In this document: piece by piece, positions 7,366-33,060 of the stretch | Layout of the letters: every line of letters begins with the position of its first letter | Position numbering within the stretch: position 1 is the first letter of the stretch | Assembly (NCBI RefSeq): GCF_965139275.1 | Contig: NZ_CBCSLE010000005.1 | DNA: 64,000 nucleotides | Source: Corallococcus exiguus | Lineage (GTDB): Bacteria; Myxococcota; Myxococcia; Myxococcales; Myxococcaceae | Direction: 5' to 3' (one strand) | The notes under the pieces: model-generated | What the model was told of the DNA's origin: nothing | Databases searched by the model: none | Seen by the model: only the letters and a program-made list of their open reading frames with translations | Position numbers and translations under genes: made by a program

Positions 7366-7375
7366 AACCAGGAGG

Positions 7376-14091: not shown

Positions 14092-14465
14092 TGGGGCGCG
14101 GCCTGAACTTCCCCTTCCAGCTGGGAGACCTGGGCACGCCGCGCACGGTGGGGCCCTCGCAGGTCATCCGCCAGCAGTTGGAGCAGCTGCTCTTCACGCT
14201 GCCCGGGGAGCGGGTGAACCGGCCGCGCTTCGGGTGCGGCGTGCAGCGGATGGTGTTCGGCGCCGCGAGTCCGGAGGCCGCCGCCACGGCCGAGTACATC
14301 ATCCGCCTCAATGTGCAGGAGTTCATGCGCGACCAGGTGCGCCTGGACGCGGTGAAGGTGAGCGCCGAGGACGCGACGCTCTACGTGGACATCCTCTACA
14401 CGCTGCTGGCGACGGGCGAGGAACACGCGGAGTTGTTCCGCCGGGACCTGGAGGCGCCGCCGTGA
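14091..14465 (+). CDS. Baseplate wedge protein gp25/gpW (GPW_gp25 family)
   Basis: SQVIRQQLEQLLFTLPGERVNRPRFGCGVQRMVFG matches the gp25 signature (E.I.Q.I..IL.T..GER...P.FG). Confidence 0.8.
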   Translation: MGRGLNFPFQLGDLGTPRTVGPSQVIRQQLEQLLFTLPGERVNRPRFGCGVQRMVFGAASPEAAATAEYIIRLNVQEFMRDQVRLDAVKVSAEDATLYVDILYTLLATGEEHAELFRRDLEAPP

Positions 14466-18229: not shown

Positions 18230-20742
18230 GCCGCGTTCCCTCCACGCACCAGGCGCTGACGCATGAGCAGCTCCGCACCCGGCTGGGCGAGTCGGCGCGC
18301 ATCGTCTTCACCCGGCTGGACGAGGCGCCCACGTGGAATCCGCTCGCGTACGCGGCGCCATCGTCGGTGGACCTGGGGCGGGGACTGCTGGACAGCGTGG
18401 CGCTCGCGCTGCACGTGCTGTGGACGTATCAGCAGGCGTGGGCGGAGGAGGGCTTCCTCGCCACCGCGCGGCTGGAGGACTCCGTCTCCAAGCTGCTCGG
18501 GCACATCGGTTATCGGCCGAGTCCGGGCACCGCGGCGGTGGGGCTCCAGCACTTCCGCTGCAAGGCGAACGTGCGCGGCACGCTGTCGCCGGGAACGGCG
18601 GTGAATTCAGCGGCGGAGGGGGAAGAGACCGCCGCTGTGTTCGAGACGCTCGCGTCGCTGCGCCTGCTGCCGGAACTCAACGAACTGCGTGCGTTCCTGC
18701 CTCCTCTGGTTGGAGCGGGGACAGGAGCTGGAACCGGGACGGAGACGGGCGGAGGAGCGGGAACAGGTGGAGGCACGGGGACGGGTGGTGGGACCGGTGC
18801 GCCTTCCGGCGAGGCGGGTGAGCCAGGGGCTCCGGCTCCCACGGGCGGCATCTTCGGGCCCGGCTCGGTGGTCGCGGGGCTCCAGGATCGCATCGAGGTG
18901 CAGCGCCACGGTCCGCTGGAGGAACGGCAGGTGGCTCGAGCGAAGCAGGATGCTCGCAAGCTGGCGTCGTTGATGAAGACGTTGGACCTGGGCGGGGATG
19001 CGGCGTGCAAGAGCACGCTGGACGCGCTCTGCGAACAACTGTGCGAGGCCCAGAAGGTCGTGGCGCAGGCCGTGCCTCCGCCCGGCCGTCCCGTGGGTGC
19101 GTTGTCCGAGTCGCAGGAGATCCTCGCCCGCCAGCTCCGCAACTTGCAGAAGCGGCAGGCGGACGCACTGGCCGCGTTGGAGGAGGCGCTGGCCCCGTGC
19201 GCGGACGAGGACCCGGCCGTGCACGCGGTCCGGTTGGACAAGATGGTCACGTTCCTGGATGCCTTCGTGAACAGCCTCATCCAGGAGGCGCGGGATCAAC
19301 TCGTCATCCTCAAGGGCAGTGAGGCGCTGAACCGGGCGGACCAGGCCTTCGGCGCGGACGCGGGAGTGGCCCGGCCGTTGGGCGTGGCGGCATCCGGTAC
19401 GGACACGCTCTATCTGCTGCCGCTGACGGATGCCTCCGGGCTCACCTCGCAGGAACCGCCGGTGCGGCCGGGAGACTGGTTCGTGCTGGCCGAGGACGTG
19501 GAGCGTCTGGGCCCCGGAGGCGCGAAGGGCACGGAGCGGATCTACCGCGAAGCACTGCGAGTGCTGCGTGTCCGCACGGAGGTTCCGCCCGGCCAGCGAA
19601 CGCCGATGACGCAGGTGACGTTCCAGCCGCCGCTGTCGCGCGCGTACGCGTTGGACGGCGTGGTGCTGCTGGGAAACAACACGCTCGTCAGCGAGGGCTC
19701 CACGGTGGAGGAGGTCGCCGTGCCTTCGCTGGATCTGCGCACGGTGTCGCTGCTGCATGGGCCGGTGACCTGGCTGCGCGACCCGAGCCGCGCGGGAGGC
19801 CGCCGGCCGGAGGTGTCCCTGACGGTGGGGGGACGCGCGTGGCATCCGGTGGATTCTTTGTTGGACGCCGCGCCTGATGAGCTGGCCTTCGCGGTGGAGT
19901 CGCTGCCGGCCGGGGCCGCGCGGCTGCGCTTCGGGGAAGGGGACCACGGTTCGGCGTTGCCCCTGGGCACGGAGGTGCGGGTCCGCTACCGGGTGGGCAG
20001 AGGGACGGGAGGCAACCGGGCCGCGCTGCGGCTGCTGGCGATGGCGAGCCCGCATCCCTGCGTGGAGAAGACGTTCAACCCGCTGCCGCTGGCCGGAGGA
20101 ACGGATCCGGAGGCACCGGCGCTGGCGCGCGTGCGAGGGCCCGCCACGGTGGGCGCGATGGACCGCGCCGTGTCGCTCTCGGACGTGCAGGCGCTGACGT
20201 TGGTGTTCGACGGCGTGCACCGCGCGAACGTGTTCCGGGATGGCGTGCGCCGCCGTTCGTTGAAGGTGGTGGTGGCCGGGCCGGAAGGAGCAGCCCTGGG
20301 CGCAGCCGATCTGGAAGAACTCCACGCGCATCTGGCGGCACGGGTGGCGCCGAAGGTGGAGCTGAACCTGATCAACCGGCAGCGTGTGGAAGTGCGGCTG
20401 CGGGTGCTGCTGCGCGTGGTGAAGGGGGCTGATCCGGTCGCGGTGCTTCAAGAGACGCGCCTGCGGCTGGGCGTGGACCGAGACCCGGAGCGTGAGCCTG
20501 GTCTGCTGGATCCGGATCGCGTGGAGCTGGGACAGGATCTGCAGCTGTCGGACGTATACGGCGCGCTCGCGGAGATCACGGGCCTGCGCTCGGTGGTGGT
20601 GCAGCGGCTGCATCGCGAAGGCACGCCGCCAGCACTCTTCGAGCGCATCGTCACCGCGCCCGGCGAGCTGCTCGCCTGGGCCCCGCCGTCCGGAGAAAGC
20701 GATGGCGTCGCGCTCACCTACGAGGAGGCCCAGGATCTATGA
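18226..20742 (+). CDS. Second Baseplate_J-family paralog (gp7/Afp12-Pvc12-like), 838 aa, with internal Gly/Thr repeat linker
   Basis: LLDSVALALHVLWTYQQAWAEEGFLATARLEDSVSKLLGHIGYRPSPGTAAVGLQHF is again a Baseplate_J-type motif. GAGTGAGTGTETGGGAGTGGGTGTGGGTGAPSGEAGEPGAP low-complexity linker at approx 19130-19270. ATGA overlap with the previous gene. Confidence 0.65.
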   Translation: MSRVPSTHQALTHEQLRTRLGESARIVFTRLDEAPTWNPLAYAAPSSVDLGRGLLDSVALALHVLWTYQQAWAEEGFLATARLEDSVSKLLGHIGYRPSPGTAAVGLQHFRCKANVRGTLSPGTAVNSAAEGEETAAVFETLASLRLLPELNELRAFLPPLVGAGTGAGTGTETGGGAGTGGGTGTGGGTGAPSGEAGEPGAPAPTGGIFGPGSVVAGLQDRIEVQRHGPLEERQVARAKQDARKLASLMKTLDLGGDAACKSTLDALCEQLCEAQKVVAQAVPPPGRPVGALSESQEILARQLRNLQKRQADALAALEEALAPCADEDPAVHAVRLDKMVTFLDAFVNSLIQEARDQLVILKGSEALNRADQAFGADAGVARPLGVAASGTDTLYLLPLTDASGLTSQEPPVRPGDWFVLAEDVERLGPGGAKGTERIYREALRVLRVRTEVPPGQRTPMTQVTFQPPLSRAYALDGVVLLGNNTLVSEGSTVEEVAVPSLDLRTVSLLHGPVTWLRDPSRAGGRRPEVSLTVGGRAWHPVDSLLDAAPDELAFAVESLPAGAARLRFGEGDHGSALPLGTEVRVRYRVGRGTGGNRAALRLLAMASPHPCVEKTFNPLPLAGGTDPEAPALARVRGPATVGAMDRAVSLSDVQALTLVFDGVHRANVFRDGVRRRSLKVVVAGPEGAALGAADLEELHAHLAARVAPKVELNLINRQRVEVRLRVLLRVVKGADPVAVLQETRLRLGVDRDPEREPGLLDPDRVELGQDLQLSDVYGALAEITGLRSVVVQRLHREGTPPALFERIVTAPGELLAWAPPSGESDGVALTYEEAQDL

Positions 20743-20858: not shown

Positions 20859-20996
20859 AACCTGTCCGACAGTCGGACAGGATTAAAGGACCCAGGCCGG
20901 GGACCTCCGTGCCAGCCGAGCCGTGAAAACCTGTCCGACAGTCGGACAGGTTTGGAGGACCGAGGCGGGGGACCTCTGCTCCAGCCGAGCAGTGAA
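20859..20996. repeat. Two tandem approx 69-bp repeat units, each starting with the perfect palindrome CCTGTCCGACAGTCGGACAGG (20861-20881 and 20930-20950)
   Basis: Direct comparison: unit 1 aacctgtccgacagtcggacaggattaaaggacccaggccggggacctccgtgccagccgagccgtgaaa; unit 2 aacctgtccgacagtcggacaggtttggaggaccgaggcgggggacctctgctccagccgagcagtgaaa. Lies in the 361-bp intergenic gap inside the CIS operon. Confidence 0.7.
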
Positions 20997-21103: not shown

Positions 21104-24100
21104 ATGAGCCCTCCTTCTCAGCGGCTGAGCCAGCTCCTCCCGGGTCTCTACTCGGCGCGGGACTTCACGCTCGCGGATCAGCCGCTCCTCAAGCTGCTCG
21201 CCGTGCTGGGCATGGAGCTGGATGCGTTCGCGCGCGCGGTGGATCAGCTCTGGGATGATCATTTCGTGGAGCGTGCGGGTCCGCAGGCGCTGCCGTTGCT
21301 CGCGGAGTTGATGGGCGCACGGCTGATCACCGACGACCCTCGCGTGCAGCGCGGTGTGGTGGCTCGCGCGGTGGCGTGGCGCCGACGGAAGGGCACGCTC
21401 GCGTCGCTGGAGGAGGTGCTCTCCGTCACCAGCCTCTGGGATGCGGAAGTGGACGAGTCCTTCCGTTCGCTGCTGGAGACCCAGGACCTCAACGACTTGC
21501 TGCCCTGGCGCGGCCGCAGCGCGGTGATGTGGGATCCCATCGGCCTCGCGGATCCGCTCACCCGCCGCTCGCCTGGCATCGAGCGTCCCCGCGATGGTGT
21601 CCCGGAGCGTGGCCCGTTCATTGGCATCGCGCCGGGGGAGACGCTGGACCAGGCCTTGCGTCGGCTGGGGAGCGCGGATGCGGGCCGTGTCGCCGCGACG
21701 CCGCGCACGTTGGATCTGCTGGGCTGGGCGCGTCCCGATGTCGCCCTCATCCGCACCGCGCGCTTGACGCTCGTGGAGTTGGAGGAAGTCACCCCGGCCA
21801 CCGTGCTCACGCTGCCCAACGGTTACCGGGGCTTTCGCGTGGATCCACTGGACCGCGATGGTCCCCTGGTTTGGCTCAAGCCTCTGGAGCGCGCGGATCT
21901 CACTGGAGGCCTCACTGCTCGCCATGAGCCCGCGCCTCCGTCGCTCGTCACGGGACGCACGGCGGCGATGCTGCTCACCCCTACCTCGCTGGCCGAGGAC
22001 GCCGACGCCGCTGAACGCGCGGATGCCATCACCATCTCTGTCGACGGCATTCCGCTGGTGGGTCCGGAGTCCCTGCCGCTCCTGCGCGGACCCCTGCCCA
22101 CCGCACCCGTGGGGCCCGCTCCCACGCTGCGCTTCGCGGACCGGGGCAGGCCTTCGCCTGGAGACACCTGGCGACTGACGCTGCTGGCCGCGCGTGAGAA
22201 CTCGGACACGGTGCTCCTGTCCACGGAACTGGTGTCGGACGCACTGAACGCCGTCACCGTCTCGCCGGAAGCGAACCAGCTCCTGGGCGGCACCACGGCG
22301 GCGTTGCTCGTGGAGCGGGTGAGCGGTGAGCCGCGCCTGCGCGACGTGGACGGAACGTGGCGCACCCTCACCGTGGGTCTGCGCCAGGGGCCTCCTCGCA
22401 GCAATGCCATCCGCGTGGACCTGGCCGGTGCGCCGTGGGTCGCTCGCATCGAGCAACACCTCGCGGATGGCAGCCTGCGCCTTGCCCGCTTCGACGCGAG
22501 CGCTGACGGTGCGCCCTGGCAGGTGGCGGAGCTCATCGGCGCGTTGCCTCCAGACGGTCCAGGCATGTCCCTGGCCATCGCTGGTGACGCACTGTTGCTG
22601 GTTGCGCCGGACGGCACGGGGAAGCTGGGCGTGTGGTCGGTGACGGGCCTGGACACCGCGACTCCGACGGGGACGCGGTTGGACACCGCGAGCCCACGGC
22701 AGCCCTCGGCGCGACTGGCTCCCAGCCTGTGCGTGCGCGGCGGCCGGGTCTTCGTCTTCGGCGGTGACCTGGGCGGTGCGCCCACTGGAGACCTCTGGTC
22801 GCTGCCGGTCACGGGCGGACCGTGGCGGCCCCATGCGGTGCGCAACCGCCAGGAGCGCAAGGCCGCGACGCTGCTGAGCACGGCACAAGGACTGATGCTC
22901 GTGGGCGGCGAGGCCGTGACGGGAGAACTGGCCGTGCCGGTGATGCTCTGTGATCCGGCCTCCGCGAGCCCTGTCTGGCGCCCCCTTGCCCCACTGCCCA
23001 TCACCGCGAACCTGCCCGGCACGCTCGTGGCAACCACCACCGCCGACGGCGTGGAGGCGCTCGTCTGGGCGGACACGACGCGTCCTCAACGGATGACGCT
23101 GAAGGCAGGCGAGGATGCCTGGGTCGCCGGACTGCTGGAGGCCTCGGGGACGAACCCGCCGGTTCCGGGCGAAGCGCTGTACGTCGACGGGCGCGTGCTC
23201 CTCACGGATCCGGCGCCGCTGCCCGCGTCGGAGGTCGTCTTCTCACTGGGCGGGCGGGGCTACCTGGCCTTCCTGCCAGAGTTGGCCCTGCTCCCGGATG
23301 AACTCCTGCGTTTCAACGTCGCCAACGACGGCGCCGCGTTCATCGAGCCTCGCGAGGGCCAGCCGCTCCCGCTCGATTCCCGGCCCGGTGGTGCGTACCA
23401 CTCGCGGGATGCTTCCGTGGCCGGCGGTGCGCGGCGCTACTCGGTGCCAGGACGGCTGAGTCGCCACCCGTTCCAGCTGCGCCAGCGAAGCCTGGGCCCG
23501 TGGACGACGCTCGCTCCGAGCATCGCCTCCGGCATCGTCGCGGTGGATCCACGCCTGGGCCGCGTCGTGCTCCAGGACGACGCACCCGTGGGCCGCGTCA
23601 CCGTCTCCGCGCGGGTAGGGCGGGGCGCCTCATTGGGAGCGGGGCTGCTTCCGCCGGACCGCCGTCCGCCCGCCGCGTGGGCGGAGCCGGACTTCCCATT
23701 CATCGATCCGCCGGACCGTCCTGGCGACCGCTCCGGCGCCGGCCTTCCTGTCACCGCGTGGATCTCCCCGGAGCGCGCGGGCGGAGTGCTGGCGGCCGGA
23801 GGCCAGGAGCGGCCCATCGTCGCCACCGTCGCGGATGGACTCCAAGCCGTAGCGCTTCCGGCGCTGGCGACTGGAGGCCAGGCGCGCCCCATCGTCGCAA
23901 GCGGCTCGCCGTCGGTGCTGACAACCGGAGGCCAGGCACCGACGGACATCGTGAACGTCACGGAAGGAAGCCCATCCGGATCACCTCCGGTGCTGGGCCT
24001 CATCGGTTCGCCGCGCCTGGCTCCAGAGCGTCTGTCACAGGGGCTGGACAACGGGCTGTCCCTCTTCGCCGCGGACACGGGCGCGGCGCCCTGCATCGGC

Positions 24101-24874
24101 GCGGACGAGCACGGCCTCTCGTTGGCGCTCTACCCAGGCTTCGGAGGCAGCGCGGCCACGCGCGTGTGGCTCGCGGGTCTGTGGCTCGCGGGACGGCTGG
24201 ATCTGGTGCTCGCTCGGGGGCAAGCGGATCTGCGCTGGTGCAACCTGGGCGTCCCCGGACAGGTGGGCCTGTGGATGCCGGGCGGTGGGCACCAGGACAT
24301 CAGCGCGCGGCGTTCGCTGCCTCCCGCCGACGTGGAGCTGCGCCTCTACGGCTGCATGGTGGGCGCCATCGAACTGCCGCCCTGGGTGCACCTCATCGCC
24401 GCGGGCTGCACCTTCGACGCCGGAGACCGCGACGCCGTCGCCATCCGAGCGGCGGGCGCGACCGTGCGACTGCGGCACTGCACGGTGCTCGGGGCCACGG
24501 AAGCGGGCGTGCTGGAGGCTTCCTCCTGTGCCTTCGCGGGCGAGGTGCGCACGGACCGGCCGGACCTGGGCTGGCTGCGCTACAGCCTCCTCGCACGCGG
24601 CGGACAGCCTCCGGTGTCGCACCAGTCGCGGGTGCACACCGTGTCCTTCCAGTCGAACCGCCAGACGGACCCGGGCTACCTCGTCCTGGGCGACAACAAC
24701 GGCCCCGACGCGCTCCACGCCTCCGAGCGCGGCGGAGTCCCCGGTGCCCACGACGAGCGCTCCGACCACGAGCGCGAACTCTCCGCGCGCACCGACGACA
24801 GCATGCCCATTGGCATCACGCCCTTCCACGCCGACCGCAGCCAGGACGACCTCGTTCGGATGAGCCGACCATGA
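21104..24874 (+). CDS. P2 gpI-like baseplate/fibre-attachment protein N-terminus fused to a long C-terminal extension containing Kelch/galactose-oxidase-type propeller repeats (1256 aa)
   Basis: N-terminus LLPGLYSARDF...LLAVLGMELD...VDQLWDDHFVERAGPQALPLLAELMG...AVAWRRRKGTLASLEEVL matches the Tail_P2_I family (LLPP...RRKGT). Later PSLCVRGGRVFVFGGDLGGAPTGDLWSLPVTGGPWRP is Kelch-like. Confidence 0.65.
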   Translation: MSPPSQRLSQLLPGLYSARDFTLADQPLLKLLAVLGMELDAFARAVDQLWDDHFVERAGPQALPLLAELMGARLITDDPRVQRGVVARAVAWRRRKGTLASLEEVLSVTSLWDAEVDESFRSLLETQDLNDLLPWRGRSAVMWDPIGLADPLTRRSPGIERPRDGVPERGPFIGIAPGETLDQALRRLGSADAGRVAATPRTLDLLGWARPDVALIRTARLTLVELEEVTPATVLTLPNGYRGFRVDPLDRDGPLVWLKPLERADLTGGLTARHEPAPPSLVTGRTAAMLLTPTSLAEDADAAERADAITISVDGIPLVGPESLPLLRGPLPTAPVGPAPTLRFADRGRPSPGDTWRLTLLAARENSDTVLLSTELVSDALNAVTVSPEANQLLGGTTAALLVERVSGEPRLRDVDGTWRTLTVGLRQGPPRSNAIRVDLAGAPWVARIEQHLADGSLRLARFDASADGAPWQVAELIGALPPDGPGMSLAIAGDALLLVAPDGTGKLGVWSVTGLDTATPTGTRLDTASPRQPSARLAPSLCVRGGRVFVFGGDLGGAPTGDLWSLPVTGGPWRPHAVRNRQERKAATLLSTAQGLMLVGGEAVTGELAVPVMLCDPASASPVWRPLAPLPITANLPGTLVATTTADGVEALVWADTTRPQRMTLKAGEDAWVAGLLEASGTNPPVPGEALYVDGRVLLTDPAPLPASEVVFSLGGRGYLAFLPELALLPDELLRFNVANDGAAFIEPREGQPLPLDSRPGGAYHSRDASVAGGARRYSVPGRLSRHPFQLRQRSLGPWTTLAPSIASGIVAVDPRLGRVVLQDDAPVGRVTVSARVGRGASLGAGLLPPDRRPPAAWAEPDFPFIDPPDRPGDRSGAGLPVTAWISPERAGGVLAAGGQERPIVATVADGLQAVALPALATGGQARPIVASGSPSVLTTGGQAPTDIVNVTEGSPSGSPPVLGLIGSPRLAPERLSQGLDNGLSLFAADTGAAPCIGADEHGLSLALYPGFGGSAATRVWLAGLWLAGRLDLVLARGQADLRWCNLGVPGQVGLWMPGGGHQDISARRSLPPADVELRLYGCMVGAIELPPWVHLIAAGCTFDAGDRDAVAIRAAGATVRLRHCTVLGATEAGVLEASSCAFAGEVRTDRPDLGWLRYSLLARGGQPPVSHQSRVHTVSFQSNRQTDPGYLVLGDNNGPDALHASERGGVPGAHDERSDHERELSARTDDSMPIGITPFHADRSQDDLVRMSRP

Positions 24875-27800
24875 CCGTGAAAGCGTACACCTCCAGGTCC
24901 CGCTTCGACGAAGCCCGGCGATTCTCCGGCGTCTATCAGCAGATGGGGCGCATGAGCCTCGACGCTGACTGGAACGAGGAGGTGCGGCTGCGCACCGTGG
25001 ACTCGCGCCGCCGCTCCGCCGACGTCGCCGAGGGCTCGCCCGACGACGGCTTCCGAATCGTCGACACGTACCTGGTGGATCCCATCCGCAACGTGCTCGG
25101 CTGGACGGGGCAGGGCCTGCCCGCGGACGACGAGCGCATCATCCCGCGCGAGCTGCGCCTGGACCGTTACGACTCGGAGACGCTGCCGTTCGTGGTGCGC
25201 AGCCGGGGCCACATCGCGCTGCGCCGCACGCTGCCCGCGCCGTTGGATCTCACGGCAGTGCCTCGCTCGGACAGCACCACCTTCACCGCCTCCGTGCTCG
25301 TCATCGGCCTGCGCTTCGAACGGCCACTCACCGACGATGAGTTCATCGACCTGCGCGTGGTCGTCGCGGACACGGAAGGGAATGAAGCGGTCCTCTCCGC
25401 CGGTCTGGGGCAGCGGCCCACGGGATGGAACGACGTGCGCTTCCCCGTCGCCGCGTTCGCGGGCGTGGACCCGACGAAGCTGAGCTCCTGGGGCGTGCTG
25501 GGCCTGCCGCCCGTGGCCCGCACGTGGGTGGCCGCGCTGCGTGTGGAGGACGCGGCGCTGGGCGCCGATATCATTATTAGGGGTGGTGACGGGACGCTGC
25601 CGGGCGCGGGCCGCATGCTGCTCGACGGCGTGCGCATCTTCCTGGAGCAGGACCTGCGCTACTCCGTGCAGCTGGATCTACCGGAGGCGGATCCGCTGGC
25701 GGCGCTGCCCACGGACGGCTCGCGGCACCACTTCTTCTTCCTCGACTGCTGGGAGCAGACCACCACCCAGTACGACGACGCGTTCCTGGAGGAGCCCGCG
25801 CTGGACGGCCAGGACACCACCGTGCGCCTGCGGCTCGTCACCCAGGTGCGCGCGCTCCAGGGGCTGTCTGACACCGACGCGGAGGTCCTGCCCACGCCCA
25901 CCAGCGGCGCACGCCTCACCACCAACATCCCGAAGGGCGCGCTGCCGGACCGCTTCCCACCAGAGCCGCTGGATCCCTGCCGAGACCGCTGCCTGTCCAC
26001 GGAGAACGCCTCCACGGGCGAGGGCTACACAGGCTCCGACAACCTCCACTTCCGCGTGGAGTTCTTCCGGGGCGGAGCGCAGCCGGTGGTGCTGTGGTCG
26101 CGAGACAACGGCTCCACGGTGCTCCCGCTGACCGCGCCCGCGGCGGCGGATGCGATGACGCTCCAGGTCTCCCCCGCGAGCGCCGCGAAGCTGCGCGCGG
26201 GAGACCTCGTCGTCATCGAAGACCGGGTCACCCGGCTCCAGCCGGAAGGCCCGTCGCTGCCAGTGCTGCGGCGGCTGCGAGGCGTCCAGGCGGACACGGG
26301 CAAGCTGGAGCTGGCGGACGCGAGCACGGTGCTCACCACGGACCCCGTGCCGCTCCCCGTGGGAGGAACGCTGGGCCGGGCCTTCAGTCCGGAGCAGGGC
26401 GCGGTGGTGCGCCGGTGGGACGGCGGCGACCTGGTGGTGCCCAACACGCGCTACCGCTTCGACGATGGCATCACCCTGGCCTTCGGCAACACGGAAGGAC
26501 GCGCGACCGAATACTGGTCCTTCACCGTGCGAGTGCGCGCGGCGGACGGCGCGGCCCGGGGTGAAGTCGAGCAGCTCACGGACGCGCCCGTGCACGGTCC
26601 GGTGCACCACTGCGTGCCCCTGGCGCGAGTGACAGGAGGCGAGACGCGAATCTTCGAGGACCTTCGTCCGCGCTACCTGCCGCTCGCCCAGGTGCGAGAC
26701 AGGTTGGTGGAGCTCTCCGAGCGCGTCATCGGCCCGGGCGTCTTCACGGTGGTCGTGGGCGACGGCGTGCGCAGCTTCGGCGACGTCGACCAGGACCTGC
26801 TCGAAGGCATCACTGGCGACGAGGCGCTCCAGGCGGCGGTGGACCGGATGGGAGGGCAGGGCGGCTCCATCTTCGTGCGAGCCGGCCGCTACAAGCTGGA
26901 GCACCCCGTGCTGCTGCGCAACCTGTCCTCCGTGCACCTCCTGGGCGACGGAGAGGCCACCGAGCTGCGCACCCAGGGCTCCGGCGGAGCCTTCTTCTTG
27001 GACCGCTGCGGCCTGGATGGCGATGTGCGCATCGAGGACCTCAAGCTGGTGGAGGCCCCCTTCGAGGACGTGGTGATTGGCGGAGGCCTCCAGCCCGTGG
27101 TGAAGGCGGTGAAGACGAGCGTGGCCCTGTCGAACGGCCAGCGCTTCGTGCCGCTGGTGGAGGTGGACGACGACCGGGTGCTGGAGGAGGACGACGTGAA
27201 GCACCCGTCCGCCGAAGCCGACTTCGTGGACGTGGTCGTCGACCGCATCAAGGCCATCGTCCCGGGCCAGGGCCGCGCGGCGGGCTCCGTGGTGGCCACC
27301 CTGGTGCAGCTGCGCAAGCTGCAACGCCAGCATCCAGGCCAGCCGCTGGAGGACGTGCCGGAAGCGAAGCCGCTGCTCGACGCGCTGGCGGCGCTGCCTC
27401 ACGGCGTGGTGACGCTGGCGGACTCCAGCGGCGTGACGCTGCGCCGCTGCCACATCCAGGCGAACCAGGCCGGCTCCGAGGCGACAGGCGTGCTGGTGAC
27501 GGGCACCTGCGCTCGCATCGTCATCGACGAGAATCGCGTCGGCGCGGCGACAGGCATCGCGGTGGCGCCGTATGCCCCGTATCTCGCGGAGCGCTTCCTC
27601 GCGTCCTTCCCGCGCGCGGGCCTCTTCGTGGACGCGCTGGCCATCACCAACAACCGGCTCCAGCCGCTGGGGGACGCGACCACGGGCATCCACGTGGCGG
27701 ACGGGCGGCTGGCGGGCGTGGAGGTGCGCGGCAACAGCGTCCAGGGCTTCCAGGTGGGCATCCTGGTGCAGGACCTGGCGGAAGGGGGACTCGCGGGGCC

Positions 27801-30800
27801 GGTGGACCGCGTGGTGGTGGCGGAGAACCAGATTCTGGGATCCGCGGCCGTGGGCATCCAGGTCGCGGGCGATGGCGTGGACGTCGTGGGCAACGAGATC
27901 CGCAACGCCGTGTCGGACAGCCTGTTCCAGGTGGGCATCCAACTGGTGGGCCGGGCGCTGCGCGTGCGCGAGTCGTGGATCTCCCTGCCGGCCGTGCCCG
28001 CCGCGTCCGTGCTGGGCGTGGTGGCCGGCATCGTCGTGGGCGACGGCCTGGATGACGGCGCGTCCAACGGCCGCCCCGCCTCGGACGTGGAGGTGGTGGA
28101 CAACCGCATCGAAGGCGACGGCGAGTCCACGCCGGGCTTCGGCATCCTGCTGGGCGGTCCGCAGCCGGTGTTCGACGTGCGCATCCGAGGCAACGTGGTG
28201 CGCGCGCTGGGGGACTCGGCCGTGCGCACCTGGGGCACGGGCGGCGCGGTGGGACGCCTGCGCGTGGAGGACAACCGCTTCGAACAGGTGGCGCTCGCGG
28301 ACGTGCCGTCGCAGGAGGACAACACGCTGGCGCTGTCCCGCCTGGACCCAGGCCTGGAGGCCGTGCTGAGCGCGGACGCGAAGTCCCGTCCCCGGCCGCT
28401 CGTGGAGGCGCTGCTCGCCAACGCCACGACCCGCGTGCGCGCTCCCCTGGACGCGGCGCTGCGCTGGCTGGAGCGGTTGACGCTCCGGGGCGCGGTGGTG
28501 CTCGCGGGCGTGGACGAGGCGCAGGTGCGCGGCAACCGGCTGCTCCAGGTGGGGCGCACGGAGGCCTACGGCGCGCCCGGACTCCCGGACGCGGAGGTGC
28601 GAGCTGCGGGTATCGCGGTGGTGTCCGGCTCCGGCATCACCGTGGAGGGCAACGAGGTGGACGGCGTGCACGCGCCGGTGACGACGACGCAGCCGCCGCC
28701 CGTGACGGGCCCGGTGAAGCTGCCGCCCATCACCGTGGTGCTCCAGCAACTCAGTGTCACGAGCTCCACGGTCCGCCCGGAGCGCGCGGACGTGCACGGC
28801 GCCGTGGTGGGCCTGTACGCCATCGTGTTGCAGTACACGGGCGCGAACGTGGACGGACGCCAGAAGGCTGGCCGGGGCCTGTACGGCCCGCTCGACACCC
28901 TGGTGGTGGAGCTGGAGGACCTGGGGACCGTGCCCGACTCCATTCTCTCCGCGCTGGAGAACGACGTCGCGGAGCTGCGCGCCGCCCAGAGCTTCAACGA
29001 CCACACCCAGACCGCGCACGCGGTGCGCTCGTCGCTGAGCCGCGCCTCCAGCTTCACCGCGCCGGACCCCGTGTCCCAGGAGGCGTGGGACATGGTGGCG
29101 CAGTTCGATCTGGCCACTGTGTCCGGCAAGGACGCCGTGGTGGCGACGGCGGACCGCATCAAGGGCGCCTTCGACTCGCTGGTGCAGGGCCTGCCCTCCG
29201 ACACGCAGGAGGGCCTCCTCAAGGCCCTGGCCCGGGTACAGGGCGGGCCGACTGACCTGACCGCGCTGGTCACGCTGGCGGGGGCGTTGAGCCAGGTGGC
29301 CCAGCTGCGCGAGGCGCAGGCGCAGCGCGCGAGGCAGCCCGTCATCGGCCAGGCGGTGGGGCCCAAGAAGACCATCATCGGCACCTTCGCCCAGGCCGCG
29401 CTGCAACAGCTGCCGCTCCAGCCGGGAACCCGGGACGCGAAGGCCAACACGGACGTGCTCGTGCAGCTGCGCCTGTCCAAGGAGGCCCTGACGGATCAGC
29501 TCCAGGAGCTTCACCCCGCGCTGGCCTCGCAGGTGGAGGCGGACTACCGCGACGTGGAGCGCACCGGCGGCAAGATGCAGCCGGTGGTGGACCGCATGCG
29601 CGCCACGCTCAAGCAGGTGCTGGACTTCACCACCGGCGTGCTGCCCCCGTCGGACGTCGCGCCGGAGGACGGCACGCGCATCGCGGCGCAGGGGATCACC
29701 GCCACCATCGGCCTGTACGCCACGAACCTGGACCGGCAGGCGGCGGGCCTCGTCACGGAATCCGACGACACGGTGGAGAAGCAGCTGCGCGCCTTCGGCA
29801 CCGCGGTGGGGCAGCTGGGCGAGCTGGTGAGCGGCGACGCGGAGCTGTCCGCGCTCTCGTTGCAGGCGCACCAGGCGGTGGTCGACGCCATCGCCCAGCC
29901 GCAGAAGCGCATGGAGCAGGTGGCCATCGCCCGGAGTCTCCTGGACCGCATCCGCGTGCAGACGCTGGAGGTGCTGCCCATGCCCCTACCGCCCGTGCCG
30001 CCGAAGGCAGAGCCGCTGGAGCGCTGGGTCTCCGCCCTGGGCGCGCTGGTGCTGGCCGTGCGCGACATGGCGCCGGGGCCGGTGCTCAGCGGCTCGTTGC
30101 AGCTCTACCTCTCCCAGTACGACCGCGTGCTGGATATCGCGGGCATCCAGGGGAGGCTCCGCACGCTGGCGCTCCAGCGCGTGAGCGACGCCATCACCGC
30201 GCTCACCAGCGGCAACGGCGGCGTGCCCGCGCGCCAGGCCCTGCACCTGCTGGTGGACGAGCCCGCGACCACCGCCGCGGAGGCCGTCGCCAGATCCAGC
30301 GCGGTGACGGCCGAGCTGGACGCCGCCGCGGTCCTGCTGCGCGCCGTGGAGCAGGCCCTGGATCCCGACGAGGACGACGCATCACGAGTCGCGCGGCTCC
30401 AGGAGTACCTGCGCCAGCGCTCCGACAAGGTCTCCGCGTCGCTCGTCGCCGTCGTCACCGGCATGCAGGAGCTGGACGGCATCCTGGACATGCTGAGCAA
30501 GTCGCTGGAGCAGCTGGCGCGCGGCGAGGCCCCGGACCCCGGCGACCTGGTGGACCCCGTCTTCGACACCTTCCCGTTGCCCGCGGACGGCCTCTTCGTG
30601 TCCGGCGTGCAGGGCCGCGTTCGGCTGGCGGACAACACCGTGCGCGACACCGTCACCGGTATCACCGCCCTGGGCGCTGCGGGGCACCTGCTGACGGAGG
30701 CGCCCACGGATCCAGGCTCGCTGCTGGATGTGGACGGCAATCGGCTGGAGGGCTGCGCGGTGTCGGGCCTGCGGCTGCGGCCGGACCTGTCCGTGACGGT

Positions 30801-32478
30801 GGTCTCCGACAACCACCTCTTCGCGTGCGCGGGCCTGCCCACCGCGGGCGAGCCCGGCCTGGGCCAGGCGGTGGCCTCGTTCGTGGGCTCTGGCGAGCTG
30901 GTGGTGAAGGGCAACGTCTTCCTGGAGAGCGGCAACACGCTGCCGCAGGCGGTGCTCCACGAGGTGGCCATCGACTGGCGAGGCGAGACGGTGGTGCGCG
31001 GCAACACCGTGCGCCACGCGGGCGGCGGTGGCGGAGGCGCGGGCGTCCTCGTCGTCACCGACACGCTGCCTCCGGACCTGGTGGCGAAGCTGTCGCGCGT
31101 ACCCTTCCTCGCCACGGACCCGGTGCCCAAACCGAGCACGGATGGCCGCACGGTCCCCGGCAACTCCGCGCCGTCCTCCATCGCCACGCTCGCGTCGGTG
31201 CCCCGCGTGGAGGACCTGGTGCAGCTGGGTTCGTTGAAGCAGAAGTTCGCCGCGGGGCCGGTGCTCAACCGCGCGCTCACGGTGACGGCCGCGGACTTCG
31301 CGCCCACCCTGAGCGCCAGCGCGGCGGCCTCGCGCTACCTCTCGGCGACGACGGCGCTCGTGCAGCCCGCGTTGGTGGACTTCCTCGTCAAGCCCATCCC
31401 CATCCTTCCGAAGCCGGTGGTGAAGGAGAAGCGGGGCGTGCAGGTGGAGGGCAACGACATCACCGCGCGAGGCCCGGCGCTGCTCCTGCTGGGCAATGGC
31501 GGCGCGGTCATCTCCGCGGCCGTGTCCGGCAACGAGCTGCGCAGCGAGGGCGGCGTGGGCGCGGTGTACCTGCGCCGCGCGGACTCCACCGTCTTCAGCG
31601 GCAACCGGTGCCAGTGCCTGGACGCCGTGAACGTCGTCGTCCTGCGCGTGGAGAAAGCGCCGGTGACCTTCACCGGCAACGTGGTGCTGGGCGCGGAGAC
31701 GGTGACGCCGCCCCCGCCGGTGGTGCGTCCCCAGTGGCTGATGCCCTCGGACAGGCTGACGCTCCAGATTCCCGTGGGCGGAGGCTCCACCCTGGGCGTG
31801 CCCCTGGACCAGGAGCTGCTCCTGGGTGGCCTCCAGCGCCGCCGCGACGTGGCGAGCGATGCCTTCTCCACGCTGCTCGCGGAGCTCGTCTTCCAACCCA
31901 CGCCCCTCCCGCCCCAGGCCCGGGCGGAGATCCCCGCCAAGGGCGTGCTGGACAACACCACGATGCAGGACGTCCGCTCGAAGCTGCCCGCGACCATGGA
32001 CGTGAGCATGGCGGCCCGGACGCTCTACGGCATCGCGGTGACCAAGGACGACTCGCCCACGAGCGCCCTGCGGGACCTGGTGGACCGCGTCGCGATGCAC
32101 GCGGACAAGCCCGAGGACGTGCAGGGCCAGGTGCGCTCCGTGCTGACCGCGGCGGACGGCGACCCGAAGAAGGCCCTCCAGCTGGTGGACAAGAGCGTGC
32201 TCGGCATCGACTCGGCGGCGTCCACGGTGAAGGAGAGCATCCTCAACGTCTCCGTGCTGCACGAGGTGCTGGCGGACTCGTTCTACACGGGCGGCACCAC
32301 CGGCCCCATCCCGGTGCAGGACGCGGGCATCCGGCCCCTCCCGCCGGAGCCGCTACCGGATCCGTATGCCCACTCCGTCATCATCCTGGGCGGCTCGCGC
32401 GTGGCGGCCGTCGGCAACGCGACCACCTCCGGTGTGCACGTCCAGGAAGCCGACGCCGTGGTGGAGCTCAACCCGTAG
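24871..32478 (+). CDS. Giant (2535 aa) beta-helix-repeat protein; putative tail fibre / receptor-binding or surface-degrading component
   Basis: ATGA-coupled to the gpI-like gene. Long tracts of pectate-lyase-like parallel beta-helix repeats (NRVGAATGIAVAP...ITNNRLQPLGDATTGIHVADGRLAGVEVRGNSVQGFQVGILVQD...). Alpha-helical C-terminal third. Occupies the fibre (H-like) position after J/I. Confidence 0.6.
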   Translation: MTVKAYTSRSRFDEARRFSGVYQQMGRMSLDADWNEEVRLRTVDSRRRSADVAEGSPDDGFRIVDTYLVDPIRNVLGWTGQGLPADDERIIPRELRLDRYDSETLPFVVRSRGHIALRRTLPAPLDLTAVPRSDSTTFTASVLVIGLRFERPLTDDEFIDLRVVVADTEGNEAVLSAGLGQRPTGWNDVRFPVAAFAGVDPTKLSSWGVLGLPPVARTWVAALRVEDAALGADIIIRGGDGTLPGAGRMLLDGVRIFLEQDLRYSVQLDLPEADPLAALPTDGSRHHFFFLDCWEQTTTQYDDAFLEEPALDGQDTTVRLRLVTQVRALQGLSDTDAEVLPTPTSGARLTTNIPKGALPDRFPPEPLDPCRDRCLSTENASTGEGYTGSDNLHFRVEFFRGGAQPVVLWSRDNGSTVLPLTAPAAADAMTLQVSPASAAKLRAGDLVVIEDRVTRLQPEGPSLPVLRRLRGVQADTGKLELADASTVLTTDPVPLPVGGTLGRAFSPEQGAVVRRWDGGDLVVPNTRYRFDDGITLAFGNTEGRATEYWSFTVRVRAADGAARGEVEQLTDAPVHGPVHHCVPLARVTGGETRIFEDLRPRYLPLAQVRDRLVELSERVIGPGVFTVVVGDGVRSFGDVDQDLLEGITGDEALQAAVDRMGGQGGSIFVRAGRYKLEHPVLLRNLSSVHLLGDGEATELRTQGSGGAFFLDRCGLDGDVRIEDLKLVEAPFEDVVIGGGLQPVVKAVKTSVALSNGQRFVPLVEVDDDRVLEEDDVKHPSAEADFVDVVVDRIKAIVPGQGRAAGSVVATLVQLRKLQRQHPGQPLEDVPEAKPLLDALAALPHGVVTLADSSGVTLRRCHIQANQAGSEATGVLVTGTCARIVIDENRVGAATGIAVAPYAPYLAERFLASFPRAGLFVDALAITNNRLQPLGDATTGIHVADGRLAGVEVRGNSVQGFQVGILVQDLAEGGLAGPVDRVVVAENQILGSAAVGIQVAGDGVDVVGNEIRNAVSDSLFQVGIQLVGRALRVRESWISLPAVPAASVLGVVAGIVVGDGLDDGASNGRPASDVEVVDNRIEGDGESTPGFGILLGGPQPVFDVRIRGNVVRALGDSAVRTWGTGGAVGRLRVEDNRFEQVALADVPSQEDNTLALSRLDPGLEAVLSADAKSRPRPLVEALLANATTRVRAPLDAALRWLERLTLRGAVVLAGVDEAQVRGNRLLQVGRTEAYGAPGLPDAEVRAAGIAVVSGSGITVEGNEVDGVHAPVTTTQPPPVTGPVKLPPITVVLQQLSVTSSTVRPERADVHGAVVGLYAIVLQYTGANVDGRQKAGRGLYGPLDTLVVELEDLGTVPDSILSALENDVAELRAAQSFNDHTQTAHAVRSSLSRASSFTAPDPVSQEAWDMVAQFDLATVSGKDAVVATADRIKGAFDSLVQGLPSDTQEGLLKALARVQGGPTDLTALVTLAGALSQVAQLREAQAQRARQPVIGQAVGPKKTIIGTFAQAALQQLPLQPGTRDAKANTDVLVQLRLSKEALTDQLQELHPALASQVEADYRDVERTGGKMQPVVDRMRATLKQVLDFTTGVLPPSDVAPEDGTRIAAQGITATIGLYATNLDRQAAGLVTESDDTVEKQLRAFGTAVGQLGELVSGDAELSALSLQAHQAVVDAIAQPQKRMEQVAIARSLLDRIRVQTLEVLPMPLPPVPPKAEPLERWVSALGALVLAVRDMAPGPVLSGSLQLYLSQYDRVLDIAGIQGRLRTLALQRVSDAITALTSGNGGVPARQALHLLVDEPATTAAEAVARSSAVTAELDAAAVLLRAVEQALDPDEDDASRVARLQEYLRQRSDKVSASLVAVVTGMQELDGILDMLSKSLEQLARGEAPDPGDLVDPVFDTFPLPADGLFVSGVQGRVRLADNTVRDTVTGITALGAAGHLLTEAPTDPGSLLDVDGNRLEGCAVSGLRLRPDLSVTVVSDNHLFACAGLPTAGEPGLGQAVASFVGSGELVVKGNVFLESGNTLPQAVLHEVAIDWRGETVVRGNTVRHAGGGGGGAGVLVVTDTLPPDLVAKLSRVPFLATDPVPKPSTDGRTVPGNSAPSSIATLASVPRVEDLVQLGSLKQKFAAGPVLNRALTVTAADFAPTLSASAAASRYLSATTALVQPALVDFLVKPIPILPKPVVKEKRGVQVEGNDITARGPALLLLGNGGAVISAAVSGNELRSEGGVGAVYLRRADSTVFSGNRCQCLDAVNVVVLRVEKAPVTFTGNVVLGAETVTPPPPVVRPQWLMPSDRLTLQIPVGGGSTLGVPLDQELLLGGLQRRRDVASDAFSTLLAELVFQPTPLPPQARAEIPAKGVLDNTTMQDVRSKLPATMDVSMAARTLYGIAVTKDDSPTSALRDLVDRVAMHADKPEDVQGQVRSVLTAADGDPKKALQLVDKSVLGIDSAASTVKESILNVSVLHEVLADSFYTGGTTGPIPVQDAGIRPLPPEPLPDPYAHSVIILGGSRVAAVGNATTSGVHVQEADAVVELNP

Positions 32479-32509: not shown

Positions 32510-32851
32510 ATGCCCGACCCCTTCGCCCTCAGTGGCCTTGTCGCCCTCCAGCGCACCGCGCTGCCCGAAGTCTCCCTCTCCGCCACGCCGGACGCGCCCG
32601 ACGCGAAGGCCGCGACGCTGGAGAACCTGGCCGGCACGCGCGCGAAGCTGGACCTGGACACCTCCGTGCTCCGGGCGCTGGACGTGCGCATCTCCCGTCT
32701 GCCGCCGGTGCCCACGGTGCCCGTGACGCTCCAGGACCTGGTGCGCGCCGCGCGCCGCAGGCTCGCCTCCGAGCGCCAGCGCGACGTGGGCGTCTGGGTG
32801 GACACGCGCGTGAAGCTGGCCACGCGGCTGGTGCAGAAGCTGGAGGAGTGA
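32510..32851 (+). CDS. Hypothetical 113-aa protein upstream of the spike
   Basis: In-frame ATG with GC3 bias. Stop overlaps the next start (TGATG). Confidence 0.45.
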   Translation: MPDPFALSGLVALQRTALPEVSLSATPDAPDAKAATLENLAGTRAKLDLDTSVLRALDVRISRLPPVPTVPVTLQDLVRAARRRLASERQRDVGVWVDTRVKLATRLVQKLEE

Positions 32852-33060
32852 TGCGCAAGCTGCTCGAAGCCAGCATGGGGCAGCGCTGCTACCTCTTCAC
32901 CACGCTGGGCCAGGTGTACGTGGGCCTGGTGGTGGAGCTCATCGACGACGTCGTCCACCTCACCGGGCCGGATGGCGCCACACCCGTCTACATCAACCTG
33001 TCGGACGTCTCCGGCGTGCGCCAGTACGACGAGGACGACGACCTGGGGAGCGCGCGATGA
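32851..33060 (+). CDS. Hypothetical 69-aa protein (small beta-rich); candidate spike adaptor/tip
   Basis: MRKLLEASMGQRCYLFTTLGQVYVGLVVELIDDVVHLTGPDGATPVYINLSDVSGV. Translationally coupled on both sides; directly precedes the spike gene. Confidence 0.45.
   Translation: MRKLLEASMGQRCYLFTTLGQVYVGLVVELIDDVVHLTGPDGATPVYINLSDVSGVRQYDEDDDLGSAR

What the first reader, a model, noticed from the sequence alone, without database searches (positions are those of the whole stretch)
21104..32478. Host-recognition module: gpI-like N-terminus fused to Kelch propeller, followed by a 2535-aa parallel-beta-helix giant
A P2 gpI-like domain normally anchors tail fibres and is approx 170 aa. Here it is fused to a more than 1000-aa extension with Kelch-like blades. 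The next gene, ATGA-coupled, is a 2535-aa protein dominated by pectate-lyase-type beta-helix repeats. Such domains in phage tailspikes bind or degrade surface polysaccharides, suggesting a target-cell glycan, possibly prey bacteria or eukaryotic cells. It is a very large investment for a fibre and could instead be a surface-anchoring adhesin.
Basis: partly seen in the sequence, partly recalled or inferred. Interest (0 to 1): 0.55.

Follow-up and report, generated by a model that had tools for sequence, protein, structure and literature searches.

The report
Giant baseplate adaptor and tailspike pair
These two very large genes are the outer baseplate parts of a phage-tail-like injection machine in a Corallococcus soil bacterium, an oversized version of a fibre class first catalogued in 2026, and unlike normal receptor-binding fibres they have stayed the same along their whole length across five bacterial phyla.

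Summary
Two coding genes overlap by ATGA at 21104-24874 (T1, 1256 aa) and 24871-32478 (T2, 2535 aa). They sit in a contractile injection system operon of a Corallococcus genome.

- **T2:** a genuine DUF6519 ("eBAP5") fibre (hhalign E 3e-65), a class described in Nat Commun 2026. Corallococcus genes, probably orthologs of T2, are in that paper's eBAP5 gene list.
- **Size and conservation:** T2 is about 2.5 times larger than ordinary DUF6519 fibres. T1 and T2 diverge at the same rate as the core wedge proteins in 14 distant loci, and no C-terminal swapping was seen.

Best reading: a wedge adaptor plus a tailspike-like glycan-binding appendage. It is a new variant of a known kind and moderately interesting.

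The parts
21104..24874 (+). T1: 1256-aa baseplate wedge adaptor (gpI / gp7 / TssG position). Probable SD sequence GGAGGGG upstream.
   Evidence: ORF; GC3 0.84; Tail_P2_I above cut-off; 63 full-length homologs; AF2 model pLDDT 84.
21140..21496 (+). T1 aa 13-131: Tail_P2_I domain, helical. Inferred to join the two Baseplate_J proteins in the wedge core.
   Evidence: Pfam PF09684 E 4.6e-7. Aligns to the N-terminus of the Azoarcus I-position protein at 28% id, E 5e-10. Helices in the model.
21476..21718 (+). T1 aa 125-205: stretch that is disordered in the monomer model yet highly conserved. Candidate partner-binding loops.
   Evidence: pLDDT <50 at model residues 69-117 and 133-147, but 57% identity between phyla. 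The binding role is inference.
22166..23353 (+). T1 aa ~355-750: Kelch-type beta-propeller. It is a lineage-specific middle insertion and the least conserved folded domain of T1.
23837..23983 (+). T1 aa ~912-960: disordered linker with a strain-variable copy number of a GGQxRPIVATVxxGL motif.
   Evidence: pLDDT ~30. 77-80% gaps in homologs and 18% id even within the genus. Alignment shown.
23990..24871 (+). T1 aa ~963-1256: C-terminal right-handed beta-helix module with Cys-containing rungs, plus a helical tail. Together with the beta domain just upstream (from aa ~807), it is shared with the I-position proteins that precede ordinary DUF6519 fibres.
24871..32478 (+). T2: 2535-aa DUF6519/eBAP5-class tailspike-like appendage. 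Its start codon overlaps the T1 stop (ATGA).
   Evidence: ORF; GC3 0.94; overlap; about 85 homologs, most 2400-2800 aa.
24871..26730 (+). T2 aa 1-620: DUF6519 (eBAP5) baseplate-anchor region. It is split by a family-specific ~180-aa insertion at aa 54-237.
   Evidence: Pfam DUF6519 32-39 bits vs cut-off 22.4. phmmer to canonical DUF6519 proteins: aa 7-53 plus aa 238-610. hhalign prob 100%, E 2.7e-65 over aa 241-710.
26731..28740 (+). T2 aa 621-1290: first right-handed beta-helix domain. It has a pectin-lyase-like N-cap (GDG...GG..Y) and an insert at aa 731-850. This domain was not modelled.
   Evidence: Beta_helix hits at aa 848-966. phrog_2234 tail spike, E 7e-5. Highest density of invariant residues, 27%, at aa 621-730. 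Weak profile hits to pectin lyase and AlgE4 caps.
28741..30567 (+). T2 aa 1291-1899: all-alpha domain of about 24 helices. It is family-specific and the least conserved large domain.
   Evidence: AF2 pLDDT 85-93, all helices. 26% id between phyla. Only 25 hits among 1.84e9 representatives, all family members or fragments, the full-length ones with the domain at the same position.
30568..32475 (+). T2 aa 1900-2535: second beta-helix, built from three segments (aa 1908-2062, 2187-2273, 2503-2533). These are interrupted by a low-confidence linker and a helical excursion (aa 2314-2475).
13979..20742 (+). Two Baseplate_J paralogs: J1 13979-18229 (1416 aa) and J2 18226-20742 (838 aa), ATGA-coupled. 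Presumed wedge partners of T1.
   Evidence: Baseplate_J, TIGR02243 and phrog_6/219 hits. Overlap in the sequence. Syntenic in all loci.
33057..34244 (+). gp5/V-type spike, encoded after the fibre gene (context).
   Evidence: Phage_base_V E 6e-24 and Gp5_trimer_C.

Best explanation
T1 and T2 form the peripheral baseplate module of an extracellular contractile injection system (eCIS) of the DUF6519/eBAP5 type, in an enlarged lineage.

**T1** is the wedge adaptor, at the position of P2 gpI, T4 gp7 or T6SS TssG.
- Its N-terminal Tail_P2_I helices are inferred to join the two Baseplate_J paralogs in the wedge core.
- Its conserved C-terminal beta-helix module, and a conserved stretch that is disordered in the monomer model (aa 125-205), are inferred to hold T2.
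- A Kelch propeller inserted in the middle is inferred to be an extra lectin-like contact surface.

**T2** is the appendage, probably a trimer by analogy with other eBAP fibres. It consists of:
1. a DUF6519 anchor;
2. a long right-handed beta-helix;
3. a family-specific 600-aa alpha-helical domain;
4. a second, tailspike-like beta-helix at the tip.

The beta-helices most likely bind a surface polysaccharide on the target cell and may also cleave it. Binding would be passed through T1 and the J proteins to trigger sheath contraction.

Shown here: gene structure, domain folds, family memberships, synteny and the evolutionary behaviour. Inferred: the T1-T2 contact, oligomeric state, glycan binding or cleavage, and the role in triggering.
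For: **Operon context.** Sheath, two gp19 tubes, CIS_tube, LysM, gpD hub, two Baseplate_J genes, T1, T2 and a gp5/V spike lie on the + strand. An AAA+ ATPase with a Pvc16_N-like region lies on the minus strand.

**T1.**
- Tail_P2_I scores above its cut-off.
- The AF2 model has pLDDT 84.
- Both the N-terminal P2_I domain and the C-terminal module are shared with the 711-aa protein that precedes a canonical DUF6519 fibre in Azoarcus.

**T2.**
- DUF6519 membership is supported by Pfam above its cut-off, phmmer and hhalign at E 2.7e-65.
- Beta_helix scores above its cut-off.

**Linkage of the two genes.** The ATGA overlap couples them. In every locus long enough to show it, T1 is followed by a T2 ortholog.

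**Literature.** DUF6519 = eBAP5 fibre anchor. eBAP3/5 fibres follow Tail_P2_I genes and often end in pectin-lyase beta-helices (PMC12923769). Corallococcus genes are in that paper's eBAP5 list.
Against: - T2 does not behave like a specificity determinant. Its normalised phmmer score in 14 distant loci (median 0.26) equals those of J1 (0.24), J2 (0.29), T1 (0.27) and CIS_tube (0.25).
- T2's length is held at about 2400-2800 aa, and no locus has a swapped C-terminus.
- No catalytic motif was identified, and PDB sequence matches are insignificant.
- The N-terminal 1335 residues of T2 were not modelled, so the shoulder-like fold, the 180-aa insertion and the first beta-helix rest on sequence evidence only.
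- The T1-T2 contact and the trimeric state were not tested.
- gp25 and PAAR homologs were not detected, so the baseplate plan is only partly understood.
- Whether particles are released from the cell is unknown.
Confidence: 0.6

Rival explanations
1. T2, and T1's extension, are mainly invariant structural parts of an unusually large baseplate, such as a skirt, strut or stabilising cage. They would not be a target-specific receptor-binding protein. Specificity, if any, would lie elsewhere, for example in the Kelch propeller, the variable alpha domains, or another protein.
For: - Full-length conservation and co-divergence with the core wedge proteins across Myxococcota, Actinomycetota, Alphaproteobacteria, Planctomycetota and Chloroflexota.
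- Conserved gene sizes.
- The beta-helix segments and anchor are the best conserved parts (41-61% id), while the alpha domains vary (17-26% id).
- Typical eCIS fibres are described as rapidly evolving (PMC12923769).
Against: - The tip fold is the same as that of bona fide tailspike receptor-binding domains.
- An invariant polar cluster on the distal beta-helix (His, Arg, Tyr, Asp) suggests a conserved ligand site rather than pure scaffolding.
- A conserved receptor-binding protein is possible if the target glycan is itself conserved.
Confidence: 0.22
2. The system is a cell-associated or intracellular CIS, like the Streptomyces or thylakoid-anchored systems. T1 and T2 would then anchor the baseplate to a structure of the producing cell rather than recognise a foreign cell.
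For: - Relatives occur in Actinomycetota, where characterised CIS are cytoplasmic (paper text quoted).
- No lysis cassette was noticed among the genes annotated near the operon.
- The large conserved appendage could be an anchor.
Against: - T2 is conserved between Gram-positive and Gram-negative producers with very different envelopes. That argues against binding the producer's own envelope.
- T1 and T2 have no transmembrane segments.
- The tailspike-type fold is typical of extracellular glycan recognition.
Confidence: 0.1
3. The genes are the tail-fibre module of a functional or defective myovirus prophage.
For: All neighbouring genes have phage-tail homologs. Databases name T1 'phage tail protein'.
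Against: - The genes annotated in the 64-kb window include no capsid, portal or terminase gene.
- No T1 or T2 relative occurs in 50,697 phage genomes.
- eCIS markers are present: CIS_tube, DUF6519, and an AAA+ ATPase with a Pvc16_N-like region.
- The same tail-only block recurs in five phyla.
Confidence: 0.04
4. T2 is a free secreted or surface-anchored adhesin or polysaccharide lyase that merely lies next to the tail genes.
Against: - The N-terminus shows no obvious signal peptide, there is no TM segment, and no anchor-type domain was found by Pfam.
- It has an N-terminal DUF6519 baseplate-anchor domain.
- It is coupled to T1 by the ATGA overlap.
- It lies between T1 and the spike in every locus.
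Confidence: 0.03

Closest known systems
eBAP5 (DUF6519) tail fibres of eCIS and their Tail_P2_I adaptors (PMC12923769, Nat Commun 2026)
   Same: - T2 has the DUF6519 N-terminal region.
- It lies directly after a Tail_P2_I gene.
- It carries pectin-lyase-type beta-helices, as the paper describes for eBAP5 fibres.
- Corallococcus genes are in that paper's eBAP5 list.
- T1's N- and C-terminal modules match the I-position protein of a canonical eBAP5 locus.
   Different: - T2 is about 2.5 times longer than canonical DUF6519 proteins, which are 450-1114 aa, with some of 1471-1835 aa. The paper's 'mega pectin lyase' is 1079 aa.
- T2 has a 180-aa insertion in the anchor, a 600-aa family-only alpha domain and a second beta-helix.
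- No macroglobulin-family match was found by Pfam.
- T1 carries an inserted Kelch propeller.
- The pair co-diverges with the core instead of evolving fast.
- gp25 and PAAR were not detected, and the spike gene follows the fibre.
Phage tailspike proteins with a right-handed beta-helix (cyanophage Pam1, Det7, 9NA, HK620, CBA120 TSPs, Klebsiella depolymerases)
   Different: - Sequence identity is only 10-17%, and no phage genome holds a relative.
- No catalytic residues were identified.
- It is far larger, with two beta-helices separated by an alpha domain.
- There is no modular swapping between relatives.
T4 gp7 / P2 gpI / T6SS TssG wedge proteins
   Same: T1 has the Tail_P2_I domain and sits after two gp6/gpJ-like genes. 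From general knowledge, T4 gp7 (about 1030 aa) is likewise a large multi-domain version of the minimal gpI (about 176 aa), and TssG binds TssK trimers through loops. PMC12923769 draws the same TssG/TssK analogy.
   Different: - There is no detectable sequence similarity to gp7 or TssG beyond the Pfam domain.
- A Kelch propeller plus a beta-helix module is not known to me in those proteins.
- Here there are two distinct J paralogs instead of two copies of one gp6.
Kelch beta-propellers (LZTR1, KLHL and KLHDC families; bacterial YjhT/NanM; jumbo-phage virion proteins)
   Same: The fold and repeat signature match. Kelch-like propellers also occur in phage virion proteins such as PhiPA3.
   Different: It is embedded in a baseplate protein. 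It scores below the Pfam cut-off for the specific Kelch families. Its ligand is unknown.

Membership tests
Tail_P2_I (PF09684) / gpI-gp7-TssG wedge adaptor | Sequence match to the family model above its curated cut-off | tested here: met
   30.2 bits vs cut-off 20.6, aa 26-118. TIGR02242 scores only 20 bits vs 51.85, which is not met.
Tail_P2_I (PF09684) / gpI-gp7-TssG wedge adaptor | Gene position directly after the gp6/gpJ-like baseplate gene(s) and before the fibre | tested here: met
   J1, J2, T1, T2 order in the window and in all complete related loci.
Tail_P2_I (PF09684) / gpI-gp7-TssG wedge adaptor | Forms the wedge core bundle with two gp6/gpJ chains and holds the fibre | not testable with these tools
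   No multimer prediction or particle structure is available.
Kelch beta-propeller | Kelch repeat signature in the sequence | tested here: met
   The family profile hits solved Kelch domains (LZTR1 4e-12, KLHDC10 1e-9, KLHDC3 5e-7). The single sequence is below the cut-offs of PF24681 and PF24981 (26 and 16 bits vs 50).
Kelch beta-propeller | Propeller fold | tested here: met
DUF6519 / eBAP5 eCIS fibre anchor | Sequence membership in PF20129 | tested here: met
   32-39 bits vs cut-off 22.4. phmmer to six canonical members, iE down to 8e-27. hhalign prob 100%, E 2.7e-65, 405 columns. A family-specific insertion lies at aa 54-237.
DUF6519 / eBAP5 eCIS fibre anchor | Located in an eCIS locus downstream of a Tail_P2_I gene | tested here: met
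   The same layout occurs in canonical loci.
DUF6519 / eBAP5 eCIS fibre anchor | Trimeric shoulder-like fold that docks on the adaptor | not tested
No multimer tool was available.
Right-handed parallel beta-helix (pectate-lyase-like) / tailspike fold | Beta-helix fold | tested here: met
Right-handed parallel beta-helix (pectate-lyase-like) / tailspike fold | Catalytic residues of a polysaccharide lyase, hydrolase or epimerase | tested here: inconclusive
   No significant sequence match to any solved enzyme. An invariant His/Arg/Tyr/Asp cluster exists but could not be mapped to a known active site.
Phage/eCIS receptor-binding fibre (as an evolutionary class) | Conserved N-terminal anchor with a fast-evolving or swapped distal part | tested here: not met
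   Full-length homology in all complete loci. The normalised score of T2 equals that of the core wedge proteins. The distal beta-helix is 41-53% identical between phyla.
Extracellular contractile injection system (eCIS) | Sheath, tube, baseplate, spike and AAA+ ATPase genes, with no head genes | tested here: met
   The Pvc16_N match is below its cut-off (19.6 vs 27 bits). gp25 and PAAR were not detected. None of the genes annotated in the 64 kb is a capsid gene.
Extracellular contractile injection system (eCIS) | Particles released and acting from outside the target cell | not testable with these tools
   Needs microscopy or biochemistry.

The most novel reading that the evidence does not exclude
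This would be a distinct 'giant-baseplate' eCIS lineage in which the fibre is no longer an exchangeable host-range module. It would instead be a fixed core component of about 265 kDa per chain (estimated from length), with two beta-helix domains and a lineage-only 600-aa alpha-helical domain. That component has been kept intact, together with a Kelch-bearing adaptor and two J paralogs, through transfer among five phyla. This would imply a universal ligand, or a mechanical or enzymatic role in firing or envelope penetration that ordinary eCIS fibres do not have.
Probability: 0.3. Interest if true: 0.6.

Novelty: new variant of a known kind. Interest (0 to 1): 0.42.

Why it matters
How eCIS particles recognise targets is the main obstacle to understanding and re-engineering them. 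The eBAP5 class was defined only in 2026, from predictions.

This lineage shows that a DUF6519 'fibre' can be a huge, length-constrained component that co-evolves with the core rather than a plug-in specificity module. It also shows that the Tail_P2_I adaptor has a conserved C-terminal beta-helix module shared across DUF6519 systems, with lectin-like inserts that differ between lineages (Kelch here; PA14 or PLL propellers in neighbouring genes elsewhere).

That gives concrete domain boundaries for structural work and for engineering. It also raises a testable question: what conserved ligand or mechanical role explains an appendage kept intact from Corallococcus to Micromonospora? For a predatory myxobacterium it is also a candidate predation or anti-eukaryote device. 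None of this is shown yet.

Tried and rejected
- **Single-sequence searches of T1 and T2 against PDB sequences:** no hits. The T2 family profile gave only insignificant hits, to apolipoprotein-like helices and pectin-lyase caps.
- **BLAST coverage artefact:** tblastn and BLASTP suggested that some loci (L023, L029, L031) keep only 5-30% of T2, which looked like fibre swapping. I rejected this. The ORFs are the same length, there are no N runs, and phmmer aligns them over the full length.
- **The paper's 'mega pectin lyase':** I suspected it was this family. It is not; it is 1079 aa.
- **Small ORFs after T2:** I looked for gp25 or PAAR among them and found nothing.
- **J2-T1 gap:** an Rfam scan gave only chance microRNA-type hits.
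- **Tandem repeats in the two genes:** nothing meaningful.
- **Foldseek of T1 against viral structures:** only propeller-level matches, with no shared architecture.
- **First MAFFT run:** timed out and was rerun with faster settings.
Full report
**1. The observation**

The window is about 71% G+C, and six-frame ORF lists are full of spurious frames. Third-position GC identifies the real genes. ORF 21104-24874 (T1, 1256 aa) has GC3 0.84. ORF 24871-32478 (T2, 2535 aa) has GC3 0.94. The alternative long frame 23500-24871 has no coding signal. The T2 ATG at 24871 overlaps the T1 TGA at 24872-24874. A GGAGGGG motif precedes the T1 start.

**2. Context**

The best homologs are from Corallococcus (97% identity to C. 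exiguus).

On the + strand lies a tightly packed operon:
- a sheath (7289-9703);
- two gp19-type tubes;
- a CIS_tube protein;
- a LysM/tail-X protein;
- a gpD-like hub;
- two Baseplate_J/TIGR02243 paralogs, J1 13979-18229 and J2 18226-20742, also ATGA-coupled;
- T1 and T2;
- two small ORFs;
- a gp5/V spike (33057-34244);
- further conserved unknown genes.

On the minus strand are an AAA+ ATPase with a weak Pvc16_N-like region and a 2670-aa annexin/metallopeptidase-like protein. None of the genes annotated in the window is a capsid, portal or terminase gene. Neither T1 nor T2 has any relative in 50,697 phage genomes. This is an eCIS-type locus, not a prophage.

**3. T1**

Tail_P2_I matches aa 26-118 above its cut-off. 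A 49-sequence alignment gave an AlphaFold2 model of aa 57-1256 with pLDDT 84 and pTM 0.82.

The domain order is:
1. P2_I helices;
2. a stretch at aa 125-205 that is disordered in the monomer model yet 57% identical between phyla;
3. a beta/alpha domain;
4. the Kelch propeller (aa ~355-750);
5. a beta domain;
6. a disordered linker whose GGQxRPIVA-type motif varies in copy number between Corallococcus strains;
7. a Cys-rung beta-helix with a helical tail (aa ~963-1256).

A canonical DUF6519 locus in Azoarcus has a 711-aa protein at the same position. That protein shares T1's N-terminal P2_I domain (E 5e-10). It also shares T1's C-terminal module (hhalign 99%, E 2e-18). It lacks the middle. The Kelch propeller is therefore an insertion into a conserved two-ended adaptor. 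In other DUF6519 loci, lectin-like modules sit in neighbouring baseplate genes: PA14/GLEYA in an Azoarcus J paralog, and a PLL propeller in a metagenomic one.

**4. T2**

*N-terminal region.* Residues 7-53 and 238-610 match canonical DUF6519 proteins, with a family-specific insertion of about 180 aa between them. Profile-profile comparison gives probability 100% and E 2.7e-65 over aa 241-710.

*First beta-helix.* From about aa 621 a pectin-lyase-like cap starts the first beta-helix. This cap has the highest density of invariant residues in the protein. Pfam Beta_helix and a PHROG tail-spike family hit aa 848-1082.

*C-terminal half.* The AlphaFold2 model of aa 1336-2535 has pLDDT 79. It shows:
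- about 24 confident helices up to aa 1884;
- beta-helix segments at aa 1908-2062, 2187-2273 and 2503-2533;
- a low-confidence linker and a helical excursion (aa 2314-2473) between those segments.

*Alpha domain.* It is found nowhere else. There are 25 hits among 1.84 billion representatives, all of them family members or fragments, the full-length ones carrying the domain at the same position.

*Export signals.* No hydrophobic segment exists in either protein, and the N-termini show no obvious signal sequence.

**5. Relatives and evolution**

T1-type genes occur in 36 loci among about 186,000 species genomes. These span Myxococcota, Actinomycetota (Micromonospora, Cellulomonas, Acidimicrobiales), Alphaproteobacteria, Gemmataceae and Anaerolineae. 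Gene order and even gene sizes are kept. Micromonospora has J1 1507, J2 814, T1 1231, T2 2590, 107, 71, spike 406, 74, 536 and 817 aa.

Most T2 homologs are 2400-2800 aa. Ordinary DUF6519 proteins are 450-1114 aa, with some of 1471-1835 aa.

BLAST suggested partial T2 genes in some loci. phmmer shows these are homologous over the full length.

Median normalised phmmer scores (ortholog score divided by self score) over 14 distant loci:

| Protein | Median score |
|---|---|
| T2 | 0.26 |
| T1 | 0.27 |
| J1 | 0.24 |
| J2 | 0.29 |
| CIS_tube | 0.25 |
| LysM | 0.30 |
| hub | 0.39 |
| spike | 0.58 |

The pair evolves like the core wedge, with no C-terminal exchange. Within T2, the anchor and beta-helices are best conserved (41-61% between phyla). 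The alpha domains and linkers are the variable parts (17-26%).

**6. Comparison with what is known**

A 2026 catalogue (PMC12923769) defines DUF6519 as 'eBAP5', one of five N-terminal baseplate-anchor domains of eCIS fibres. It reports that eBAP3/5 fibres follow Tail_P2_I genes and that eBAP5 fibres often end in pectin-lyase beta-helices. It proposes loop-mediated docking on the Tail_P2_I protein, by analogy with TssG-TssK and R-pyocins.

Its eBAP5 gene list contains Corallococcus entries, among them C. coralloides DSM 2259, C. exiguus and C. interemptor. Orthologs of T2 are therefore almost certainly already catalogued. The identity of the IMG gene with COCOR_03275 is my inference.

The paper's large example, a 'mega pectin lyase', is 1079 aa and belongs to a different family. 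The words 'giant' and 'largest' do not occur in its main text.

Compared with that paper, this analysis adds:
- the size class;
- the alpha domains;
- the split anchor;
- the Kelch-bearing adaptor and its conserved C-terminal module;
- the core-like evolution of the pair.

**7. Mechanism and verdict**

Most likely (about 0.6), T1 is the wedge adaptor and T2 is a probably trimeric, tailspike-like appendage docked on it. T2 would bind, and perhaps cleave, a surface polysaccharide and relay binding to the baseplate.

The main rival (about 0.2) is that T2 is chiefly an invariant structural element of a T4-scale baseplate. A producer-anchoring role, a prophage fibre and a free adhesin are less likely, for the reasons given under the rival explanations.

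The module and folds are right. The phage framing, the 'dominated by beta-helix' description and the implied host-range role need revision. I rate this a new variant of a known kind, of moderate interest.

Noticed in passing
window 20861-20881, 20930-20950, 40414-40434: A perfect 21-nt palindrome, CCTGTCCGACAGTCGGACAGG, occurs three times (0.01 expected by chance). Two copies lie in tandem ~69-bp units inside the 362-bp J2-T1 gap. That gap is absent in other phyla, where J2 and T1 abut. The third copy lies in the convergent gap between the + and - strand operons. It could be a REP/MITE-like element or an operator.
   Followed up: partly
window 43382-51394 (- strand): A 2670-aa ORF carries three annexin repeats (E 5e-21) and a C-terminal DUF6782 metallopeptidase-like region. 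It lies directly downstream of the AAA+ ATPase gene. It is a candidate eCIS cargo with a eukaryote-like membrane-binding domain. It was not found in the flanks of related loci.
   Followed up: partly
window 51426-53867 (- strand): An AAA+ ATPase ORF (Afp15-like) has a sub-threshold Pvc16_N match at its C-terminal end (19.6 vs 27 bits). This may be a fusion, or the ORF as listed may be too long.
   Followed up: no
window 13979-20742: Two different, very large Baseplate_J paralogs (1416 and 838 aa, ATGA-coupled) stand in place of a single gp6/gpJ gene. The same two-paralog plan appears in canonical DUF6519 loci (L039 2262-7831). This suggests that each paralog fills one of the two gp6 positions of a wedge.
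   Followed up: partly
window 32510-33060 and 34249-34443: No gp25 or PAAR homolog is detectable in the operon. Three small conserved ORFs (113, 69 and 64 aa) flank the spike gene, which unusually lies after the fibre gene. The 69-aa ORF is conserved across phyla (39-62% id).
   Followed up: partly
window 23837-23983 (T1 aa ~912-960): Strain-variable copy number (one to several) of a GGQxRPIVATVxxGL motif in a disordered linker of T1. It is seen only in the C. exiguus clade.
   Followed up: yes
L023 13548-21356; L029 8985-17441: BLASTP and tblastn reported only 5-7% coverage between T2 and these orthologs, although phmmer aligns them end to end (scores 1563 and 1152). This is a caution for BLAST-based coverage on very long, high-GC proteins.
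   Followed up: yes
window 5407-7365 and 34412-38181: Three sizeable operon genes (652, 536 and 720 aa) have no Pfam family. The 536- and 720-aa genes are conserved in Micromonospora and other loci. The 536-aa one has weak tape-measure/hub PHROG hits.
   Followed up: no
window 40545-42059 (- strand): A 504-aa protein with an FGE-sulfatase-like domain and HEAT repeats lies at the end of the minus-strand operon that carries the annexin giant.
   Followed up: no
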